This document shows, piece by piece, positions 1 to 63,702 of a DNA stretch of 64,000 nucleotides. A model generated the notes under the pieces. It searched no databases and was not told where the DNA came from. It saw nothing but the letters and a program-made list of their open reading frames with translations. Within the stretch, counting starts at the first letter, position 1. Each line of letters opens with the position of its first letter. The position numbers and the translations under genes were made by a program. This stretch comes from Eledone cirrhosa (taxonomy: Eukaryota), in contig OZ024748.1 in NCBI GenBank assembly GCA_964016885.1, forward strand, positions 26,164,001-26,228,000. Direction: 5' to 3'.

Positions 1-144
1 AATTATTTGCGTAGTACCATGAGTGAAGAGCGGTTGAATGCTCTGGCAATGATGTACATAGAGCGAGAACTGGCTGAAAAAATTGACTTCAGCATCGTGA
101 TTGAAAAATTTTCTAAAGTAAAACATCGCAAATTAGAACTGTAG
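1..144 (+). pseudogene. C-terminal dimerisation domain of a hAT-superfamily transposase (cut by window edge; intactness unknown)
   Basis: Frame +1 reads NYLRSTMSEERLNALAMMYIERELAEKIDFSIVIEKFSKVKHRKLEL*, matching the hAT motif YLRSTMxxERLxxLA; missed by the ORF track. Confidence 0.85.
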
Positions 145-490: not shown

Positions 491-676
491 CTTCTCACGA
501 CTCTGCATATTCGCCGCCTCCAATATTTTAAAATACACGTTAAATAAAAAAAAAAAAGGTTATATAGAACACGGCCATTTGTTAAAGTAGCAAATATTGT
601 TACGAAAACATATAAAATCGATTTTAAAAATCTTGGAAAACCAGATATAAGTTTCCTCAATCATATACTCCAAATA

Positions 677-855
677 TTGTTTCTACGTTTGGCACAAGGC
701 CAGCAATTCACCAGTGCATTACTGGTACTTTATTTTATCGACCCCGTAAGGATGAAAGGCAAAGTTAAACTCGGCGGGATTTGAACTCAGAATGGCAAGG
801 GCCGTAACTCTATACGTCAAAGCATGGCGCCCGACCCTCTACCGATACTGACATA
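677..855 (-). mobile_element. tRNA-derived SINE, family A
   Basis: Reverse complement of the 14145-14332 copy: A box, B box GAGTTCAAATCC, and body GCCTTTCATCCTTACGGGGTCGATAAAATAAAGTACCAG; >10 copies in window. Confidence 0.85.
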
Positions 856-1471
856 TTAAGAGTTGTAACCAGCAGATAGTATCAACAATGGAAAGATCAA
901 TAGAAATATTGTTTCCTTTGTCCAATCTGACTTCTTTTTCAAATATTTGTCAACATTGTTACTATTTGTGCTTTCTCTGTCCGACACTTTTTCTTCTTGC
1001 TTTGACTGAAGCTGGGGGGGGGGGGGGGGGGGGGGCGCACCTCTCAACCCGGCACGTAGGCCTGCTTGTTCTGTTACGAACTTTTGTTGCATTTCATCTG
1101 TGATTAAAGTGAAAGGGTATACTTATTAATTAATAGCTGATACACGCATAGCGGCTAATTGCTTTTGGTGTTGGAAACATTGACAAGTCGTTTCGCAAGC
1201 TAAGAAATACATATTTTGAGGACTATGAACACATTTTTTCGAATATACTTTGGAACGGTTACATTTACAATTGCCCCCAATGTTTATGTATAACACTCAC
1301 ACGTTTCCTTACACACCCCTAAATTAGCGAAAACAACACCACTTAAAATACAATTACAAAGTTAAATAAATTAGAATTAATAATTGTTTCCACTTTTTTT
1401 TTTATTCCCCTTTCAAAACTTCTTACTATAATTTAAACATCTCACTATTTATTAGCTACTATATATATATA

Positions 1472-1533
<62 letters not shown>

Positions 1534-1534
<1 letters not shown>

Positions 1535-2230
1535 TTCAATCAAGATTTTAACTTGTAATTTTTTAATTTCTAATTTTCAATCATAATTTCCACTGTGAAA
1601 CCATAATATCTAGAATCAAGTTTATACTCTCTTAGCGGCTGATGGTCAATTCTATTGTCCAATCATAACTTAGGGGTAGTATTGAGGCCTATTGAGAGTC
1701 ATACTCTGCCACCACCACTAGGTTTCGGTCAACTGCCACTGGCAGGGGGACTAGCAGTAAACTATAACCGTGTCATATTACAGACCTATATGGCTGATTG
1801 TTTCGTTGGGGTATGAGGGGACCTGCCTAGGCGAATTTCGTAGAGTTTTGGGGTAGTGGATGGTCAACTTCCTCCGGACTTGCGCCTGCGCAAACCGGTG
1901 GGGGTGAATTGGGACTCACAAGGGAACGGACGAAGGATTCAAGAACACCCGCTTTATCCGTTCCCCTGTCGATTCAATTTGGATTGTCCCGGGAACATCA
2001 CCTTATTATGAAAGAAGCTGTCTGATGATGTCACGGCACTGGGTACACCGAAGAGTGTGGCCACTGTTGTCATTGAAATATGTATCACAGCATTATCATT
2101 AAAGGACTTTAACATCTGAAACTACTTCGCATTTTCTTATTCTAAATATACTCCGTCACTCCTATGTGGGAAAAATACGCTGAGTGCTCGAATCGAATTG
2201 CAACAATATTTACCTTAAGTATATACTTAA

Positions 2231-2236
<6 letters not shown>
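1534..2236 (+). mobile_element. Non-coding Penelope-like/retrozyme-like unit bounded by (TA)n
   Basis: Flanked by TA tracts; contains a long hairpin (1907-1979, GGGAACGGA/TCCGTTCCC), a hammerhead (2017-2091), ATTAAA (2098) and a terminal palindrome TATTTACCTTAAGTATATACTTAAGGTAAATA. Confidence 0.6.
2017..2091 (+). ncRNA. Type I hammerhead ribozyme
   Basis: Stem I GCTGT/ACAGC; core CTGATGA (2022-2028); long imperfect stem II; GAAA (2075-2078); minimal stem III; UH = TC (2085-2086). Confidence 0.8.
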
Positions 2237-2261
<25 letters not shown>

Positions 2262-3939: not shown

Positions 3940-4080
3940 AATTGATTTTACTTTCGGCACAAGGCCTGCAATTATTCCAGTGCATTACTGGTACTTTATT
4001 TTATCGACCCCGTAAGGATGAAAGGCAAAGTTAACCTCGGCGGGATTTGAACTCAGAATGGCAAGGGCCGTAACTCTATA
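3940..4080 (-). mobile_element. SINE family A, truncated at the palindrome insertion
   Basis: Matches 677-810 up to CTCTATA, where the palindrome starts. Confidence 0.8.
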
Positions 4081-4407
4081 GTGAAAGATTGAAGAATAAC
4101 ATGGTCGGCTGTACAAAAAGGGTTTTATTTCTAGTATTAACAATTGTTTCATTGATCAGGTGAGTCTAAAGGCCGCTAATCAATCGAAGTTGCGTCACTC
4201 GACCTTAAATATAGTCTTTGCTTCTGATCATATCATCCGAATACTGAGTATTCCGATGATTTGATCAGAGGCAAACACTGTATTTAAGGTCGAGTGACGC
4301 AACTTCGATTGATTAGCGGCCTTTAGACTCACCTGATCAATAAAACAATTGTTAATACTAGAAATAAAACCCTTTTTGTACAACCGACCATGTTATTCTT
4401 CAATCTT

Positions 4408-4457: not shown

Positions 4458-4645
4458 ATAATTGTTTCTACTTTTGGCACAAGGCCAGCAATTACCCAGT
4501 ACATTACTGGTACTTTATTTTATCGACCCCGTAAGGATGAAAGGCAAAGTTAACCTTGGAGGGATTTGAACTCAGTCCGTAAAGGGACGTAACTCTATGC
4601 CAGAAAGCATGGCGTCCGACCCTCTACTGATACTGCCAATCCACT
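4458..4645 (-). mobile_element. SINE family A
   Basis: Full-length match to other family A copies. Confidence 0.85.
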
Positions 4646-14144: not shown

Positions 14145-14770
14145 TGTGGATTGGCAGTATCGGTAGAGGGTCGGACGCCATGCTTTCCAGCATAGTTACG
14201 TCCCTTCACGATCTGAGTTCAAATCCCGCCGAGGTTGACTTTGCCTTTCATCCTTACGGTGTCGATAAAATAAAGTACCAGTAATGCACTGGGTAATTTG
14301 CTGGCCTTGTGCCTAAAGTAGAAACAGTTATTAAATCTGAGGAAGGAAGGGTTGATGCAGCGGATGTAGCTGGCTGTTCTCCACGGCCAATGCTTTCATC
14401 TCGCTAACGGGACACATCTGACATATATCGCCCGGCCAAGGGTACAGAGCTTTCCCCCTCCTTTCTCCTTTTTTTATGACCTTTTTCGCTCTCCTCCTAT
14501 TTCTATTTCCTTGTTTATTATTTTAATTTTTTAAATGAATTCAAATCCCGCCGATGTTAACTTTGCCTTCCATCCTTACGGGGTCGATAAAATAAAGTAC
14601 CAGTAATGCACTGCAGTATATCGACTTTCCCCTCTCCCCAAATTGTTGGCTTTGTGCCTATCCCGCCGAGGTTAACTTTGCTTTTCATCCTTACAGGGTC
14701 GATAAAATGAAGTACCAGTAATACACTGAGATAATTGCTGGCCTTGTGCCAAAAGTAGAAACAATTATTG
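14145..14770 (+). mobile_element. Cluster of family A SINEs (full 14145-14332; two partial 14535-14770)
   Basis: TGGCAGTATCGG A box, GAGTTCAAATCC B box, conserved body and AGTAGAAACAATTATT tail. Confidence 0.85.
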
Positions 14771-18704: not shown

Positions 18705-18900
18705 AATTGTTTCTACTTTTGGCACAAAGCCAGCAATTACCCCAGTGCATTACTGGTACTTTATTTTATCGACGACCCCATAAGGATGAAAGGCAAAGTT
18801 AACCTTGGCGAGATTTGAACTCAGAATGGCAAGGGCCGTAACTCTATACATCAAAGCATGGCGTCCGACCCTCTACCAAAACTGCCAATCCACCGCCCCT
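18705..18900 (-). mobile_element. SINE family A (also partial copy at 19722-19822)
   Basis: Full-length reverse-complement match to 14145-14332. Confidence 0.85.
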
Positions 18901-45735: not shown

Positions 45736-46014
45736 AGTAAATAGAGAACAGTACATAAAGAGATGTGTGTTCAATTATAGGGGACATAATACCACTGGAG
45801 TGAAAATCATATAATCTACGAACAGAATGGAAAATGCACAAGATTTAAAAAGATAAATTAAAGTGCACAGACCATTGTTTATAAATATATCTCCTGGACA
45901 TGCTGGAAGTATGTTTCCCCACAAATTAAGTGTAGAATCATACCACTGAGGCTTATCAACAGGAGAAACAAATATGTTCCACACTTCTAAACTCATATTA
46001 GATGAATGGCACGA

Positions 46015-46055
<41 letters not shown>

Positions 46056-46284
46056 TATATATACATATATATATATATATATACATATATACATATATAT
46101 ATATATACATATATATATACATATATATATACATATATATATATATACATATATATACATATATATATACATATATATACATATATATATACATATATAT
46201 ACATATATATACATATATATTTACATATATATATACATATATATATATACATATATATATATACACATACACATATATATACAC

Positions 46285-46319
<35 letters not shown>

Positions 46320-46780
46320 CATACACATATATATATATATATATACATACATATATATATACAAACATATATATATACACATATATATACATATATATAA
46401 ATACATATATATACATACATATATATATACATATATATACATACATATATATATACATATATATACATACATATATATATATACATATATATATATACAT
46501 ATACATATACACATATACATATATACATATACATATATATATATATACATATATATATATACATATATATATATATACATATACATATATATATATACAT
46601 ATATATATATACATATATATATATACATATATATATACATATATATATATACATATATATATACATATATATACATATATATACATATATATATACATAT
46701 ATATACATATATATACATATATATATACATATATATACATATATATATACATATATATACATATATATATACATATATAT

Positions 46781-47390
46781 GGTGGCTGCCAACTCGTTTT
46801 CGAGTACGGCCACTACTTTATATCCATGTAGGAGAACTCCTACTGATGCGCTAAACAAGTGTGACCCTTTAGTCCAGCCAGCGACTTGAAAACTCTGGTA
46901 CAAACACTACACTTGTGACAATTATTGACACATAGTGCTGGGCCCATGGTACCATGTGATGACAAGTGCAGAGAGATCTCCAGATATAAAGCAATGCCTG
47001 TGCTGTGAAGCTTTTATAGTGAGGAAAGGCACTGCACAAAGCCAGTCCCACTCTCTTAACCAAGATGATATTTACCAAAAAGAAGAACAAGTCAACATCA
47101 TTGGATACCATCAGGGTTGCAGGTGTTATATCAGAGTTTTCCTTCTCCTAGAATTCTGCCTTGACAAAGGCTAAGGGGTCATCTCTCCCGGTGATTTTGG
47201 ATGGCCATTGACTCTTAAGAGCTCCTTTGCCCTTTTGACAGGTTTTGTTTTTAGTCCTGCAGGATGTCCAAAGTCATCTTCCTCACCAAGAAACCTTGGT
47301 GGGGTTGCCAGTTTAGTCGCCAACGACCCGACCATGAGACAGGTTGTACTGGGATACATGTTACCAGTAGCACCAACTGGTGACCTGACC
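46781..47390 (-). mobile_element. Non-autonomous RTE-derived retroelement, apparently full length (610 bp)
   Basis: Near-identical to 2561-3153 with 17 extra 5' nt; same 3' junction with (TA)n. Confidence 0.8.
47308..47390 (-). ncRNA. Candidate HDV-like ribozyme at element 5' end
   Basis: Order P1 GGTCA...P2 CCAGT...L3 ACCTGTC...P1' TGGTC, GG (P1.1), P4 TCG-TTGG-CGA, J4/2 CTAA, P2' ACTGG; P3 pairs poorly and P1 relies on G-U pairs. Confidence 0.5.
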
Positions 47391-47631
47391 TAAACATACA
47401 TACATACATACATACATACATACACATACATACATACATATACATACATATACATGCACACATACACATACATATATATACATATATATATACATATATA
47501 TACATATATATATACATATATATACATATATATATACATATATATACATATATATATACATATATATATACATATATATATACATATATATATACATATA
47601 TATATACATATATATATACATATATATATAC

Positions 47632-47813
<182 letters not shown>

Positions 47814-47895
47814 GTGTATATATATATATATACATATATACATATATATATATACATATATACATATATATATATACATATATACATATATATAT

Positions 47896-48010
<115 letters not shown>

Positions 48011-48025
48011 TACATATATATATAT

Positions 48026-48068
<43 letters not shown>

Positions 48069-48895
48069 TACATATATATATATACATATATATATACATA
48101 TATATATACATATATATATACACATATATATATACATATATATATACATATATATATACACATATATATATACATATATATATACATATATATATACACA
48201 TATATATATACATATATATATACACATATATATATACATATATATATACACATATATATATACATATATATATACACATATATATATACATATATATATA
48301 CATATATATATACATATATATATACATATATATATACATATATATATACATATATATATACATATATATATATACATATATATATATACATATATATATA
48401 TACATATATATATATACATATATATATATACATATATATACACACATATATATATACACATATATATATACACATATATATATATACACATATATATATA
48501 CACACATATATATATATACACACATATATATATACACACATATATATATATATATATATACACATTATATATACATACACATATATATACATATACATAT
48601 ATACATATACATATATACATATACATATATACATATACATATATACATATACATATATACACATATATATATATACACATATATATATATACACATATAT
48701 ATACACATATATACATATATACACATATACATATATACACATATACATATATACACATATACACATATACATATATACACATAATATATATATACATAAA
48801 TATATATATACATAAATATATATATACCCCTATATATATAGTACATATATATATATATATATACACATATATATATATATACATATATATATATA

Positions 48896-50204
48896 CTAGC
48901 AGAAGTGCCCGGCGTTGCTCGGGGCTGAGGAACTGATGTATTATAATGAATATTCCATCTCGTTTGGTTTGCAGGCCTGGTGTGTCATGGTCTCTGTTAA
49001 CTACGGTATATATAATCTGGTTGCAGCTAGAAAAATAGACATACCGCAGCAGGGTTTGTACCTACATAGGTGATCCCCTGTCTATTTGACTTTCGCCTGA
49101 CCTAACTGAGGTCGTAGGTGAAAGGGATAGGATCAATCACTTTTTGACAGGACAAAGAAAACATTTGTTGGTGCCTGTTTATGTCGTGGTTTTGGGTTCA
49201 ATCCCTAATTTTGTTATTCCTTACTGAAAGTACTTAATGAACCTGTGAACGTCCCTAGCAGTTAAGAATGAGAAATTGAATTGTTTCTGGCGCGATTGTA
49301 CTCTCGTCATTGTTAACGAAAACTACATTGAAACACGCACACACACACGTGTGTATTGACGGTAATACACACACACACACATGCTAACGGCGACATAACA
49401 TTTACCGGTTATATAAACTTTTCATGCTATATAACATCGTACTGACTACATAGCCTTTTACCGGCTACATAGCTTTACCGGCTACATAATGAATACCGGC
49501 TACGCAATTGATCTTGTTTTTTAAGGAAGTCTGCGAATAGTGTTTTAAAAAATTATTTGTTAACTCACATGATGTGAAATGGAAGGGTAGTATTATCGCC
49601 ATGAAGATTAACAACCGAAAATGAAAATAATTATGTCGTTTGATTTTACGATTGAAAGAAAATAATTGTCATAAATTAGAATTTTTATTTGTTAATGAAG
49701 TGTGTATGTGTGGTTAGAAATCCGGCACGTGGTTAAATTGATTTAAAGTTTAATTATTCATTTGATGTGAGTGTGTGTTTGTATGTGTTTGCAAATAAAT
49801 AAATCAGTTTGAAGATTCACATTTAGAATAAACGAAATTGTACGTTAATGTGGCTAATGTTTTTTTTTGTTTAGTCTGTAAAGTGTATGAGTGAGAGAGT
49901 AAAACGGACAGTATCACCATCAACATGAACAATGTAAAATGAAAAGAATAGTTGTTTCAGCTTGGAAAGAGAAAGTAGCAGAAAGTATGAAGTTGTATAG
50001 ATTTTGAAGGGTAATGAGAGGAACATCGTAAAATATTGAGTTTTATCGATTTTTTGCGTAATTTTGGGTGAAATTGAAAAAAATATATATGCCATGACCC
50101 AATCGAAGATATTTCAAATACGGAGTTGTAAATTTCAATTAAAGAAATTCTATATCGTAGATTTCTATAACAAAGAAATGTGACCATACACTGAGCTTTA
50201 TAGA
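48896..50204 (-). mobile_element. Non-autonomous Helitron, ~1.3 kb
   Basis: Minus strand A|TCTATAAAGCT...CCCGAGCAACGCCGGG...CTAG|T; termini shared with 29865-30512. Confidence 0.8.
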
Positions 50205-50213
50205 TTATGATAC

Positions 50214-50244
<31 letters not shown>

Positions 50245-50342
50245 CATATATATACATACATATACATATATATATATATATATACATATATATATACATA
50301 TATATATACATATATATATATACATATATATATGCATATATA

Positions 50343-50392
<50 letters not shown>

Positions 50393-50616
50393 TATATGCA
50401 TGTATATGCATATATATATATATATGCATATATATGCATATATATATATATATACATATATATATATGCATATATATGCATATATATATATATACATATA
50501 TATATATACATATACATATGCATATATATACATATATATATACATATATATATATACATATATATATATACGTATATATATGCATATATATATATACATA
50601 TATATCTGCATATATA

Positions 50617-50662
<46 letters not shown>

Positions 50663-50913
50663 TATATATATGCATATATATATACATATATGCATATATA
50701 TATGCATATATATATGCATATATATGCATATATATGCATATATATATGCATATATATATGCATATATATATACATATATATATGCATATATATATACATA
50801 TATATATACATATATATATGCATATATATATACATATATATATATATACATATATATATATACATATATATATACATATATATATATACATATATATATA
50901 CATATATATATAC

Positions 50914-50946
<33 letters not shown>

Positions 50947-50987
50947 CATATATATATACATATATACATATATATATACATATATAC

Positions 50988-51018
<31 letters not shown>

Positions 51019-51242
51019 CATATATATATACATATATACATATATATATACATATATACATATATATATACATATATACATATATATATACATATATACA
51101 TATATATATACATATATACATATATATATACATATATACATATATATATAATACATATATATATATATACATATATACATATATATATATTACATATACA
51201 TATATATACATATATAATATATATACATATATATATATATAC

Positions 51243-51275
<33 letters not shown>

Positions 51276-51308
51276 CTTATATATATATATACATATATAT
51301 ATATATAC

Positions 51309-51413
<105 letters not shown>

Positions 51414-51414
51414 T

Positions 51415-51505
<91 letters not shown>

Positions 51506-51512
51506 TACATAT

Positions 51513-51563
<51 letters not shown>

Positions 51564-51616
51564 CATATATACATATATACATATACATATATACATATAT
51601 ACATATATATATATAT

Positions 51617-51836
<220 letters not shown>

Positions 51837-51842
51837 CATATA

Positions 51843-51912
<70 letters not shown>

Positions 51913-52271
51913 TATATACATATATATATACATATATATATACATATATATATACATATATATACATATATATACACATATATATACATATATATATACA
52001 TATATATATACATATATATATATACATATATATATATACATATATATATATACATATATATATATACATATATATATATACATATATATATACATATATA
52101 TATACATATATATATATACATATATATATATACATATATATATATACATATATATATATATACATATATATATACATATATATATACATATATATATACA
52201 TATATATATATACATATATATATACATATATATATACATATATACATATATATATACATATATATATACAC

Positions 52272-52508
<237 letters not shown>

Positions 52509-52528
52509 CATACATATAATATATATAT

Positions 52529-52593
<65 letters not shown>

Positions 52594-52610
52594 CATATAT
52601 ATATACATAC

Positions 52611-52651
<41 letters not shown>

Positions 52652-52661
52652 CATATATATA

Positions 52662-52987
<326 letters not shown>

Positions 52988-52991
52988 ATAC

Positions 52992-53200
<209 letters not shown>

Positions 53201-53216
53201 CATATATATATAATAC

Positions 53217-53417
<201 letters not shown>

Positions 53418-53436
53418 CATATATATACATATATAC

Positions 53437-53489
<53 letters not shown>

Positions 53490-53498
53490 CATATATAC

Positions 53499-53663
<165 letters not shown>

Positions 53664-53715
53664 CATATATATACATATATATATATAATATATATATATA
53701 TACATATATATATAC

Positions 53716-53901
<186 letters not shown>

Positions 53902-53902
53902 C

Positions 53903-54459
<557 letters not shown>

Positions 54460-54464
54460 CATAC

Positions 54465-54678
<214 letters not shown>

Positions 54679-54721
54679 TTTTATATATATATATATGTAT
54701 ATACATATATATATTTTTATA

Positions 54722-54869
<148 letters not shown>

Positions 54870-54890
54870 TATACATATATATATATATAT

Positions 54891-54926
<36 letters not shown>

Positions 54927-55349
54927 CATATATATATACATATATATATACATATATATATACATATATATATACATATATATATACACATATATATATA
55001 TACATATATATATACATATATATATATACACATATATATATATACATATATATATACATATATATATATACACATATATATATACATATATATATATACA
55101 CATATATATATACATATATATATATACATATATATATATACATATATATATATACATATATATATACATATATATTATACATATATATATATACATATAT
55201 ATATATACATATATATATACATATATATATACATATATATAATACATATATATATACATATATATATACATATATATATATACATATATATATACATATA
55301 TATATATACATATATATATATACATATATATATACATATATATATATAC

Positions 55350-55380
<31 letters not shown>

Positions 55381-55381
55381 C

Positions 55382-55448
<67 letters not shown>

Positions 55449-55759
55449 CATATATATATATACATATATATATATACATATATATATATACATATATATA
55501 TACATATATATATATACATATATATATACATATATATACATATATATATATACATATATATATACATATATATATATACATATATATATACATATATATA
55601 TATACATATATATATACATATATATATATATACATATATATATACATATATATATATACATATATATATACATATATATATACATATATATATACATATA
55701 TATATATACATATATATATACATATATATATACATATATATATACATATATATATATAC

Positions 55760-55790
<31 letters not shown>

Positions 55791-56070
55791 CATATATATA
55801 TACATATATATATACATATATATATATATACATATATATATACATATATTATATATACATATATATATATACATATATATATACATATATATATATATAC
55901 ATATATATATACATATATATATACATATATATATATACATATATATATACATATATATATATACATATATATATACATATATATATACACATATATATAT
56001 ACATATATATATACATATATATATATACATATATATATACATATATATATACACATATATATATACATAT

Positions 56071-58741: not shown

Positions 58742-59879
58742 TACTCTTTTACTCTTTTACCTGTTTCAGCCATCCGGCTGAGGCCATGCTGGGGCACCGC
58801 CCTTGTTGCTACACATTTTATCTCCAGCCTGTATAGGTTGGCCACTGGTGTAGGAGGGAGTTTGTTGCTGCTGCCCTTAGGTTTCCCTCATGTCTTGCTG
58901 TGGGCTCATCCGGGATCCTGGATAACAAGGTGTCGAGATGTTTCTTAAAGACATCCACCTCCACGTCATGCAAGTCTCGCAGATGCCTCGGCAGCCTGTT
59001 GAAGAGTTGAGGGCCCTTGAATCCCAGGTTATTGCAATACCTGCTCCTTATTCTAGATGTGGAAGACGGGACCTTTGGCACCACACAGTGACGTCCTGTT
59101 CGACGGTTGGTCCAGCTCCCAATGCCAAAGTTTGGTGCTAGTCCCTCCATGATTTTCCACATGTAGATCACTGCGTATCTCTCCCGTCTTCGCTCCAAGG
59201 AGTAGAGGTTCAGTTCCTTCAGCCTCTCCCAGTAGCTTGTCTCCCTCATCTTGGCAATCCTCTTGGTGTAGCTTTGCTGGATTGCCTCAAGCTCTGTGGT
59301 TAGTTTGACACTATNNNNNNNNNNNNNNNNNNNNNNNNNNNNNNNNNNNNNNNNNNNNNNNNNNNNNNNNNNNNNNNNNNNNNNNNNNNNNNNNNNNNNN
59401 NNNNNNNNNNNNNNNNNNNNNNNNNNNNNNNNNNNNNNNNNNNNNNNNNNNNNNNNNNNNNNNNNNNNNNNNNNNNNNNNNNNNNNNNNNNNNNNNNNNN
59501 NNNNNNNNNNNNNNCTTTCTGACGACTCGCTCCATGACCTTACTGATATGCGATGTCAGGGAGACTGGCCTATAGTTCTTGGCCTCCGCTCTACTACCTC
59601 CTTTATGGATAGGGCATATTGTGCCTTCTTTCAGCTCCCTGGGTAGTACACCGCTAGCCAAGGAGCTTCTGAAGAGCATCTTCAGTGGAGTTGCTAAGGC
59701 CCGCTTACATATTTTTAGGAGAACTGCTGGGAATCCATCAGGTCCAGCAGCCGAGTCTGTTCTAATTTCATCAATGGCGTACACCACATCCTCCTCCATT
59801 ATGTCTATGTGGTTGATGGTTGCCATTTCTTGATGTAGTGTTGTGGCATCAAAGAACTCCTCTGGCTTCGTTATTTGCA
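58742..59879 (-). mobile_element. Young 5'-truncated CR1/L2-group LINE spanning an assembly gap
   Basis: [71 protein letters not shown]; (AAAAGAGT)n tail; no stops in visible parts. Confidence 0.9.
59315..59514. other. Assembly gap (200 N)
   Basis: Direct inspection. Confidence 1.
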
Positions 59880-59929
59880 TATATATATATATATGCATAT
59901 TATATATATGCATATATATATATATATGC

Positions 59930-59963
<34 letters not shown>

Positions 59964-59980
59964 GCATATATATATATATA

Positions 59981-60062
<82 letters not shown>

Positions 60063-60110
60063 TATATATATATATGCATATATATATATATATGCATATA
60101 TATATATATA

Positions 60111-60150
<40 letters not shown>

Positions 60151-60264
60151 TATATATATATATGCATATATATATATATATGCATATATATATATATATA
60201 TATGCATATATATATATATATGCATATATATATATATATATATATATGCATATATATATATATA

Positions 60265-60348
<84 letters not shown>

Positions 60349-60373
60349 TATATATATATATATATATATATAA

Positions 60374-60450
<77 letters not shown>

Positions 60451-60498
60451 TATATATATATATATATATATATGCATATATATATATATATATATATA

Positions 60499-60588
<90 letters not shown>

Positions 60589-60822
60589 TATATATATATA
60601 TATATATATATGCATATATATATATATATATATATATGCATATAGATATATATATATATATATGCATATATAGATATATATATATATATATGCATATATA
60701 GATATATATATATATATATGCATATATATATATATATATATATATGCATATATATATATATATATATATATGCATATATATATATATATATATATATGCA
60801 TATATATATATATATATATATA

Positions 60823-60856
<34 letters not shown>

Positions 60857-60960
60857 TATATATATATATATATATATATGCATATATATATATATATATA
60901 TATATGCATATATATATATATATATATATATATGCATATATATATATATATATATATATA

Positions 60961-61018
<58 letters not shown>

Positions 61019-61040
61019 TATATATATATATATATATATA

Positions 61041-61204
<164 letters not shown>

Positions 61205-61235
61205 CATATATATATATATATATGTATATATATAC

Positions 61236-61272
<37 letters not shown>

Positions 61273-61330
61273 TATGCATGTATATATATATATATATATA
61301 TATGCATATATATATATATATATATATATA

Positions 61331-61670
<340 letters not shown>

Positions 61671-61678
61671 TATATATA

Positions 61679-61778
<100 letters not shown>

Positions 61779-61842
61779 TATATATATATATATATATATA
61801 TATGCATATATATATATATATATATATATGCATATATATATA

Positions 61843-61986
<144 letters not shown>

Positions 61987-62028
61987 TATATATATATATA
62001 TATATGCATATATATATATATATATATA

Positions 62029-62135
<107 letters not shown>

Positions 62136-62159
62136 TATATATATATATATATATATATA

Positions 62160-62316
<157 letters not shown>

Positions 62317-62332
62317 GCATATATATATATGC

Positions 62333-62368
<36 letters not shown>

Positions 62369-62370
62369 GC

Positions 62371-62503
<133 letters not shown>

Positions 62504-62525
62504 TATATATATATATATATATATA

Positions 62526-62561
<36 letters not shown>

Positions 62562-62685
62562 TATATATATATATATATATATATGCATATATATATATAT
62601 ATATATATATGCATATATATATATATATATCTATATGCATATATATATATATATATATGCATATATATATATATATATATATATA

Positions 62686-62723
<38 letters not shown>

Positions 62724-62847
62724 TATATATATATATATATATATATGCATATATATATATATATATATATATGCATATATATATATATATATATATATAT
62801 GCATATATATATATATATATATATGCATATATATGCATATATATATA

Positions 62848-62979
<132 letters not shown>

Positions 62980-63133
62980 TATATATATATATATATATAT
63001 ATGCATATATATATATATATATATATATGCATATATATATATATATATATATATGCATATATATATATATATATATATATGCATATATATATATATATAT
63101 CTATATATGCATATATATATATATATATCTATA

Positions 63134-63169
<36 letters not shown>

Positions 63170-63191
63170 TATATATATATATATATATATA

Positions 63192-63281
<90 letters not shown>

Positions 63282-63306
63282 TATATATATATATATATAT
63301 ATAAGC

Positions 63307-63339
<33 letters not shown>

Positions 63340-63350
63340 GCATATATATA

Positions 63351-63417
<67 letters not shown>

Positions 63418-63437
63418 TATATATATATGCATATATA

Positions 63438-63471
<34 letters not shown>

Positions 63472-63493
63472 TATATATATATATATATATATA

Positions 63494-63567
<74 letters not shown>

Positions 63568-63667
63568 TATATATATATATATATATATGCATATATATAT
63601 ATATATATATATGCATATATATATATATATATATGCATATAGATATATATATATATATGCATATATA

Positions 63668-63702
<35 letters not shown>

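What the first reader, a model, noticed from the sequence alone, without database searches (positions are those of the whole stretch)
1534..2236. Non-coding, structured unit with an intact hammerhead ribozyme (retrozyme/Penelope-like)
Seen: complete type I core (GCTGT-CTGATGA-stem II-GAAA-TATGTA-TC-ACAGC; predicted cut after C2086), an unusually long ~46-nt stem II, an upstream 70-nt hairpin, ATTAAA just downstream and a 32-bp terminal palindrome, with no ORF. Known: Penelope-like pseudo-LTRs and retrozymes carry minimal hammerheads with tiny stem III, often acting as dimers. Inference: a possibly undescribed ribozyme-bearing non-autonomous family mobilised by a Penelope-type RT.
Basis: partly seen in the sequence, partly recalled or inferred. 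Interest (0 to 1): 0.75.

Follow-up and report, generated by a model that had tools for sequence, protein, structure and literature searches.

The report
Hammerhead repeat riding Hydra-type retrotransposons
This is the cut-off tail of a 1.3-kb protein-free repeat with over a thousand copies in this animal genome; it carries an oversized hammerhead (self-cutting RNA) motif and shares its end signals with a protein-coding Penelope-type jumping gene that likely copies it, probably from a circular RNA, but cutting is untested.

Summary
The hammerhead motif is real: 1 hit in the window, 0 in 300 shuffles, the core is the most conserved part of the copies, and stems covary across six families. The unit is the 3' ~750 nt of a ~1.33-kb ORF-less repeat (1,151 exact copies of a 19-mer) inserted in (TA)n, with Penelope-like (PLE) anatomy: 5' truncation, partial tandems, inverted partners, two fixed 3' ends. 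I found the likely helper lineage, a 4.0-kb PLE with a 738-codon open frame and Hydra-clade motifs. It has the same AUAUGUAU stem III, the same C·C in stem II, and the same small hairpin just after each 3' end; two other PLE families lack these. Corrections: the element starts near 1401, the palindrome (34 bp) is almost private to this copy, the 703 nt do not fold better than shuffles, and stem II opens U·U/G·U, so 'intact' is unproven. It is not a tandem retrozyme array. Insertion ends favour a circular or uncut template over a cut linear one. No RNA data. The scan noted similar elements, the C·C and the Hydra link on other DNA of this genome.

The parts
1401..2219 (+). 5'-truncated copy (about the 3' 750 nt) of a ~1.33-kb ORF-less Penelope-like element, subfamily A; 8.2% from the majority of copies
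1459..1533 (.). (TA)n run inside the element, an expansion of a short internal TA stretch; in other copies this spot holds nested insertions of other PLEs
1881..1892 (+). TGCGCCTGCGCA, NRF1-like box (name recalled); possible internal promoter element 129 nt before the core
   Evidence: kept with at most 1 mismatch in 77 of 94 copies; similar box 89 nt before the hammerhead of another PLE family
1918..1969 (+). Conserved hairpin upstream of the ribozyme; arms kept, loop variable
   Evidence: 17 pairs, 88.6% of cells paired, 5 pairs with two-sided change in 19 diverged copies chosen for having both arms
2017..2091 (+). Type I hammerhead motif: stem I 2017-2021/2087-2091, core 2022-2028 and 2075-2078, predicted cut after C2086
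2029..2074 (+). 46-nt stem II: U·U, G·U, U-A, C·C, six pairs, second C·C, distal helix
2078..2085 (+). Self-complementary AUAUGUAU stem III/loop, predicted dimer contact (self-duplex -2.2 kcal/mol)
   Evidence: same octamer in the autonomous element
2098..2103 (+). ATTAAA (AATAAA in sister families), poly(A)-signal-like hexamer kept across the clade
2132..2142 (+). First fixed 3' end (end 1, about 56 nt after the cut site); other copies join (TA)n here
2150..2188 (+). Tail hairpin 1 (ACUCC...UGAGUGCU), starting about 8 nt after end 1; shared with the Hydra-type element; inferred RT docking signal
2209..2219 (+). Second fixed 3' end (end 2, about 133-138 nt after the cut site), used by this copy; in tandem copies it reads on into hairpin 2 (GCUCC...UUGAGCGCU), which is absent here
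2206..2239 (.). 34-bp palindrome: end 2, TATATA and a 14-nt inverted copy of end 2; insertion by-product, not a family terminus
2239..2260 (.). (TA)n target microsatellite

Best explanation
This is a dead, 5'-truncated copy of a ~1.33-kb non-coding Penelope-like element that is likely copied by the reverse transcriptase/endonuclease of a Hydra-clade Penelope-like retrotransposon, probably from a circular RNA that its hammerhead is predicted to make. Steps: (1) a partial-tandem master copy with two hammerheads is transcribed (inferred); (2) the two motifs pair through AUAUGUAU and cut as a dimer, and the monomer is ligated to a circle (inferred from published PLE/retrozyme work, untested); (3) the Hydra-type protein binds one of two small RCUCC...UUGAGYGCU hairpins, nicks (TA)n and starts cDNA about 6-9 nt 5' of the hairpin, which gives the two fixed 3' ends (ends and shared hairpins shown, binding inferred); (4) RT stops early, or runs more than once round, or two cDNAs primed on opposite strands join head to head, giving truncated, partial-tandem and inverted insertions (products shown). 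Identity as a non-autonomous Hydra-type PLE: about 0.85. The whole mechanism with the circle: about 0.55.
For: Copy number: 1,151 exact 19-mers, control 0. Anatomy: of 30 loci chosen by the body, 25 have a partial tandem upstream, 16 an adjacent inverted copy, 17 end at end 1 and 6 at end 2; of 100 consecutive copies on contig C1 (99 mapped), 31 have an inverted partner and 4 are near full length; ends join (TA)n. This matches EN+ PLEs (PMC8557442 Fig. 2 text) and the two internal RT start sites of PAc (PMC11167929). Ribozyme under selection: core+stem III mismatch 12/656 and 18/828 against 0.039-0.072 in flanks; 0 and 43 of 5,000 19-column windows are as low. Across six families 70 of 78 modal pairs pair, 61 Watson-Crick against 36.5 by permutation, 0 of 20,000 (A and A' are kin). 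Helper: 738-codon open frame with RWR, DKT, CNCRNKSNC and no CCHH, as Hydra is defined in PMC8557442 section 11; 13 of 16 such loci carry this hammerhead type downstream, C·C at stem II position 4 in 18 of 20 motifs, hammerhead spacing 3.9-4.3 kb in five loci. The 200 nt after the cut site align with score 112 against 86.6 shuffled (1 of 1,000), and both hairpins are present; two other PLE families score at chance (879 and 872 of 1,000) and lack the motif. Template not a cut linear monomer: 0 of 25 upstream repeats start within 5 nt of the cut, 16 extend past it, 6 past the promoter-like box; 2 copies begin at the cut against 4 at a control site. Hairpin 2 lies beyond end 2, yet 6 full-length copies end at end 2 and none of 54 exact junctions lie one monomer apart, which a circle explains. 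U·U at the stem II base is in 14 of 26 Hydra rows of PMC8557442 File S2, and an axolotl motif with it cleaves as a dimer (PMC7229834 section 15).
Against: No cleavage, expression or circle was observed. In subfamily A the active fold is disfavoured (+6.7 kcal/mol; +3.3 with stem III open; core paired), more so than in two A' copies (+1.6 with stem III open), and an unconstrained cofold of two copies did not give the dimer hammerhead. In PAc the ribozyme was not needed for insertion in vitro and uncut RNA was the main substrate (PMC11167929); 8 of 9 Xenopus retrozyme dimers did not cleave in vitro (Li et al. preprint). No long homology and no coding remnant link the body to the Hydra-type element (tblastn best E 1.1), so the actual helper may be an older relative. 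Pfam gave no hit for the 738-codon frame; the Hydra label rests on motifs read by eye, with no tree. Only 2 of 99 unbiased copies are partial tandems. Covariation within the A group alone is modest (8 pairs with two-sided change, 94 of 500 shuffles as high). The circle argument assumes hairpin 2 is required and that no array escaped an exact-match search.
Confidence: 0.55

Rival explanations
1. Same element and same helper, but the template is an uncut, longer-than-unit linear transcript (or template jumping), and the subfamily A hammerhead is weak or vestigial.
For: PAc uses uncut RNA in vitro and no RNA ends were seen at its cut site (PMC11167929). Subfamily A fixed U·U (57 of 59) and G·U (59 of 59) where A' has G·U or G-C and A-U; its core is predicted paired. 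No 5' ends pile up at the cut, which fits uncut RNA as well as a circle.
Against: The core and stem III stay more conserved than flanks among A copies. Full-length copies ending at end 2 need sequence beyond end 2, and no multi-monomer arrays were found. U·U is common in Hydra hammerheads.
Confidence: 0.27
2. It is the decayed or internally deleted remnant of a formerly autonomous PLE rather than a family that spread in ORF-less form.
For: The sequence just after end 2 aligns with the leader of the Hydra-type ORF, with GTG where the helper has its ATG, so the element probably descends from a pLTR of that lineage.
Against: Full-length copies share the same ~1.33-kb ORF-less body at 82-95% identity with fresh PLE-type ends; no Pfam or tblastn trace of RT or GIY-YIG; none of the 19 A'-type loci among 59 read 4.5 kb upstream had a joined PLE ORF by my reading of the tblastn hits.
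Confidence: 0.08
3. The helper is one of the other two PLE families in this genome (a Neptune-like 775-codon family or a third family).
For: Both also insert in (TA)n with two 3' ends; the Neptune-like one shares TCTTATT and ATATTTACCT near its ends and has U·U at its stem II base.
Against: Their stem III differs, they lack the RCUCC/UUGAGYGCU hairpins, and their 3' regions align at chance (879 and 872 of 1,000).
Confidence: 0.06
4. A classical tandem non-LTR retrozyme or satellite amplified locally.
For: Type I hammerhead, no ORF, seamless head-to-tail junction.
Against: Monomer 1.33 kb, above the 170-400 nt (PMC7229834) and 51-972 bp (Li et al.) reported; dispersed, mostly 5'-truncated; no two of 54 junctions one monomer apart.
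Confidence: 0.04

Closest known systems
Hydra-clade Penelope-like elements (Craig et al. 2021, PMC8557442; passages, section 11, File S1/S2 part 2 and supplement search hits read)
   Same: Type I hammerhead in the pLTR, often with U·U at the stem II base (14 of 26 rows); (TA)n targeting; partial tandem and inverted insertions. The coding element found here has the listed Hydra motifs.
   Different: No ORF; stem II is 46 nt against at most about 26 nt in the listed Hydra motifs; a C·C at stem II position 4 and the paired tail hairpins are not mentioned in what I read; the helper here is about 4.0 kb against 'generally <3 kb'.
Animal non-LTR retrozymes (Cervera & de la Pena 2020, PMC7229834, passages and section 15 read; Li, Clavereau & Pollet, bioRxiv 10.64898/2026.07.22.740005, parts 1-3 of 5 read)
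   Same: ORF-less, type I hammerhead, proposed PLE dependence, weak helix III implying dimer action; axolotl HHR_Amex2 also has U·U at the helix II base.
   Different: Monomer 1.33 kb, dispersed and mostly 5'-truncated, no multimer arrays, two fixed PLE-type 3' ends; RNA circles not shown.
Minimal hammerheads of metazoan PLE pLTRs (Cervera & de la Pena 2014, PMC4209133, parts 1-2 of 4 read)
   Same: 5-bp helix I, palindromic helix III, larger helix II, predicted dimer, low expected activity; their circle model fits the insertion pattern here.
   Different: They report a conserved G10.1-C11.1 pair and an extra base after A9; subfamily A has U·U and no extra base, and helix II is far longer than their 7-8 bp.
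PAc (Poseidon, Anolis) internal RT initiation (Frangieh et al. 2024, PMC11167929, parts 1-2 of 4 read)
   Same: Two RT start sites downstream of the hammerhead bounding a 'tail'; a stem-loop at the start sites; both strands primed.
   Different: Different clade. Here each start site has its own copy of one hairpin motif, and the start sites are UA-rich like the target, whereas PAc starts were reported as non-homologous to the target.
MRC1 and other non-autonomous Chlamys PLEs (PMC8557442 passage)
   Same: Non-autonomous PLE forming pLTRs and sharing its 3' end with autonomous families.
   Different: Green algae, a clade mostly without hammerheads; often multicopy head-to-tail.

Membership tests
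Type I hammerhead ribozyme | CUGANGA and GAAA core with NUH site in type I order | tested here: met
   columns 93-100% conserved in 86 copies (some of these loci were picked by the 3' 19-mer)
Type I hammerhead ribozyme | Stems I and II supported by compensatory change | tested here: met
   70 of 78 modal pairs over six families, 0 of 20,000 permutations; weaker within the A group
Type I hammerhead ribozyme | G10.1-C11.1 (or other standard pair) at the base of stem II | tested here: not met
   U·U in 57 of 59 subfamily A motifs; precedent in 14 of 26 Hydra rows and axolotl HHR_Amex2
Type I hammerhead ribozyme | Short palindromic stem III allowing a dimer | tested here: met
   AUAUGUAU self-duplex -2.2 kcal/mol; the dimer fold was not the cofold MFE
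Type I hammerhead ribozyme | Self-cleavage | not testable with these tools
   needs in vitro transcription
EN+ Penelope-like element | Partial tandem (pLTR) and 5' truncation | tested here: met
   25 of 30 body-selected loci; 4 of 99 unbiased copies near full length
EN+ Penelope-like element | Inverted 5'-truncated copy next to the insertion | tested here: met
   16 of 30 and 31 of 99
EN+ Penelope-like element | Optional tail, i.e. two fixed 3' ends, downstream of a pLTR hammerhead | tested here: met
   tail about 80 nt, longer than the 30-40 bp described
EN+ Penelope-like element | RT plus GIY-YIG open reading frame | tested here: not met
   hence non-autonomous
Hydra clade (for the helper element) | RWK-like and DKT motifs, CxCX5C linker, no CCHH, C-terminal endonuclease | tested here: met
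   RWR, DKT, CNCRNKSNC read against section 11 and supplement alignments; by eye; Pfam blank
Hydra clade (for the helper element) | Phylogenetic placement with published Hydra RTs | not tested
Non-LTR retrozyme | No ORF, type I hammerhead | tested here: met
Non-LTR retrozyme | Short monomer (170-400 nt; up to 972 bp) | tested here: not met
   about 1.33 kb
Non-LTR retrozyme | Tandem arrays of complete units | tested here: not met
   none of 54 exact junctions one monomer apart; 10 of 25 partial tandems do hold two whole hammerheads
Non-LTR retrozyme | Expressed as linear and circular monomer RNA | not testable with these tools
   no RNA run was available

The most novel reading that the evidence does not exclude
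Hydra-clade PLE reverse transcriptases recognise a duplicated RCUCC...UUGAGYGCU hairpin that sets each of the two start sites, and the insertion record shows that full-length cDNA is made on a ribozyme-generated circle. This 1.33-kb parasite keeps only those signals plus an oversized hammerhead whose stem II carries a clade-wide C·C and a built-in anti-core strand, an off-switch released by dimer formation or by the RT protein.
Probability: 0.3. Interest if true: 0.7.

Novelty: new variant of a known kind. Interest (0 to 1): 0.45.

Why it matters
What hammerheads do in Penelope-like elements, and how their telomerase-related RT picks its RNA and start site, are open questions (PMC8557442, PMC11167929). 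A non-coding passenger and its coding helper in one genome reduce the cis-signals to a short list: AUAUGUAU stem III, C·C in stem II, a hexamer, and two copies of one hairpin 6-9 nt after each 3' end. Each can be mutated in an in vitro priming or cleavage assay. The oversized stem II also shows a form that Rfam's gathering thresholds miss. This copy itself is a dead fragment with no sign of host function.

Tried and rejected
No RNA holder listed; the three runs found are contig sets of one sample, and laying them neither bridged nor contradicted the palindrome. First guess of a Neptune-like helper from shared TCTTATT/ATATTTACCT was dropped. Reading the body as a GIY-YIG or RT remnant failed. 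An extra unpaired base after A9, as in published minimal motifs, gives no stem II here; the direct register does. A pile-up of 5' ends at the upstream hairpin looked strong in A' copies, but in 99 unbiased copies it was modest (15 in the bin -175 to -151) and absent in subfamily A; part is a homology boundary. Two same-strand hits 3.46 kb apart were a local duplication, not an autonomous element. Upstream reads of 59 loci of sister families found no directly joined ORF; the helper was found only by a protein search. The in-window hammerhead scan was faulty (it missed the real site) and was redone with a positive control. ESM Atlas did not hold the helper protein. The Lunse et al. 2017 paper on dimeric PLE hammerheads was not held and is recalled only. 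Literature searches found no description of this family, the C·C or the tail hairpins; Repbase, Dfam, the library of PMC13282606 (passages only), the Li et al. supplements and most of the PMC8557442 supplement were not seen and may hold it. 'Octopus' in the searches was my guess from genome size and TA content, not a result.

Full report
Observation. A descriptor for core, stem I and stem III hits only this site in the window and nothing in 300 shuffles; Rfam reports nothing. The upstream hairpin is real (z -3.56). The 703-nt unit and the 101-nt ribozyme region do not fold better than shuffles. The palindrome is 34 bp and occurs at only 2 places in the genome. The element begins near 1401, upstream of the TA run.

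What it is. The window lies in a 3.0-Gb animal genome. The unit has 3,769 first-look candidates, of which 40 were scored, and a 19-mer from the ribozyme occurs exactly 1,151 times, control 0. Full-length copies define a ~1.33-kb monomer with no coding trace. Segments differ from the majority by a median 6.6%, this copy by 8.2%. Copies end at two fixed places, about 56 and 138 nt after the predicted cut, and join (TA)n; tandem copies read on seamlessly from the second end into the body. Among 30 loci chosen by the body, 25 carry a 5'-truncated repeat of the 3' region upstream and 16 an adjacent inverted copy. Among 100 consecutive copies on one contig (99 mapped), 4 are near full length, 2 are partial tandems and 31 have an inverted partner. 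This is the anatomy described for endonuclease-bearing Penelope-like elements (PMC8557442), and the two ends match the two internal RT start sites shown for PAc (PMC11167929).

The ribozyme motif. In loci not picked by the ribozyme pattern, core plus stem III show 12 of 656 and 18 of 828 mismatches against 3.9-7.2% in flanks. Pattern searches found 462 long-stem motifs with G at 10.1 and 174 shorter ones sharing the same 3' half. Grouped into six families, 70 of 78 modal stem pairs pair, 61 Watson-Crick against 36.5 expected, 0 of 20,000 permutations; stem II position 4 is C·C in five families and C·A in the sixth. Families were assigned by my own rules, some have only 2-6 members, 9 of 116 motifs were left out, and A and A' are kin. 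Subfamily A, to which this copy belongs, has U·U then G·U at the stem II base; its hammerhead fold lies 6.7 kcal/mol above an MFE in which the core is paired. U·U at that place is common in published Hydra-clade motifs (14 of 26 rows) and occurs in an axolotl motif that cleaves as a dimer, so it does not rule out activity. Those motifs follow it with stronger pairs than this one does.

The helper. Three coding PLE families were found. Two have different hammerheads, and their 3' regions align with this element only at chance. The third has a 738-codon frame with RWR, DKT and CxCX5C motifs and no CCHH, the published marks of the Hydra clade; Pfam gave it no hit and no tree was built. In 13 of 16 loci its hammerhead follows the ORF, with the same AUAUGUAU stem III and C·C in 18 of 20 motifs. 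It has two 3' ends in (TA)n, and in both elements each end is followed within about 6-9 nt by a hairpin of the form RCUCC...UYGAGYGCU. The 200 nt after the cut align at 112 against a shuffled mean of 86.6 (1 of 1,000), up to the helper's start codon, where the passenger has GTG. Hairpin 1 is also seen in most sister families: 20 of the 22 loci that keep its 3' arm have a 5' arm match, allowing one mismatch. No longer homology links the two bodies, so the true helper may be a relative of this family.

Mechanism. Shown: the insertion products, the two ends, the shared signals, selection on the core. Inferred: transcription from partial-tandem masters, dimer cleavage, RT docking on the hairpins. 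On the template: a cut linear monomer would leave copies starting at the cut, and these are not enriched (2 against 4 at a control site; 0 of 25 tandem starts within 5 nt, 16 beyond it). Hairpin 2 lies past end 2, so a full-length copy ending at end 2 needs a template with a whole monomer upstream of hairpin 2. Six such copies were seen, while none of 54 exact junctions lie one monomer apart. A circle made by the hammerhead, as proposed in PMC4209133, explains this. Uncut read-through RNA or template jumping remains a serious rival, given PAc and the 8 of 9 inactive Xenopus dimers in Li et al..

Comparison and novelty. It works like an animal retrozyme or non-autonomous PLE, a kind already described. 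It fails retrozyme membership on monomer size and on arrays, and fails autonomous PLE membership on the ORF. I found no published description of this family, the C·C or the paired tail hairpins, but did not see repeat databases or several supplements. Unreviewed notes of this scan report a 1.35-kb ORF-less element with oversized hammerheads, the C·C with a Hydra link, and two shared hairpins on other pieces of this genome; these are not independent support. Verdict: a new variant of a known kind, interest 0.45, valued for the testable cis-signals rather than for this dead copy.

Noticed in passing
window 1-144: C-terminal end of a hAT-like transposase frame (Pfam Dimer_Tnp_hAT E 0.063, below cutoff).
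   Followed up: partly
window 676-860, 3941-4087, 4461-4638, 14152-14326, 18706-18887 and others: A ~185-bp SINE-like repeat with 9 further hits in the window and an exact 21-mer in 60 of 364 fetched loci.
   Followed up: no
L135, L163-L170: A very young Neptune-like PLE: 775-codon RT plus GIY-YIG frame, 4.2-kb monomer, copies 97-99% identical, many intact frames, short hammerhead with U·U at the stem II base.
   Followed up: partly
L233-L262: A third abundant PLE family with a canonical G-C hammerhead, two 3' ends in (TA)n and a GCGCATGCGCA box upstream.
   Followed up: partly
L349-L364: The Hydra-type helper has a 1.5-1.9-kb AT-rich 3' UTR with internal duplications, and its main form cleaves after UA rather than UC.
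   Followed up: partly
L361 near 1622, L354 near 1210 (oriented): Another hammerhead family with stem III palindrome AUGCGCAU, C·U at stem II position 4 and the same ACUCC...GAGUGCU tail hairpin.
   Followed up: no
window 2023-2030 with 2066-2074; alignment A1: In all 19 diverged A-group copies the 3' strand of stem II is also complementary to the catalytic core, and this anti-core helix is the consensus fold; a possible off-switch or simply a misfold.
   Followed up: partly
L064, L070, L084, L124, L221: The loop of the upstream hairpin appears inverted or is the junction of head-to-head copies, suggesting cDNAs fold back or anneal through its arms.
   Followed up: no
end 1 of many copies, e.g. 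L026, L067, L078, L086: (CT)n runs often sit between end 1 and the (TA)n target, as if the last bases were copied repeatedly.
   Followed up: no
L062, L069: Other PLE families have inserted into the element's internal TA stretch.
   Followed up: partly
window about 45800-56000 and 59800-63700: Several kb of TA-rich low-complexity arrays with GC down to 5%.
   Followed up: no
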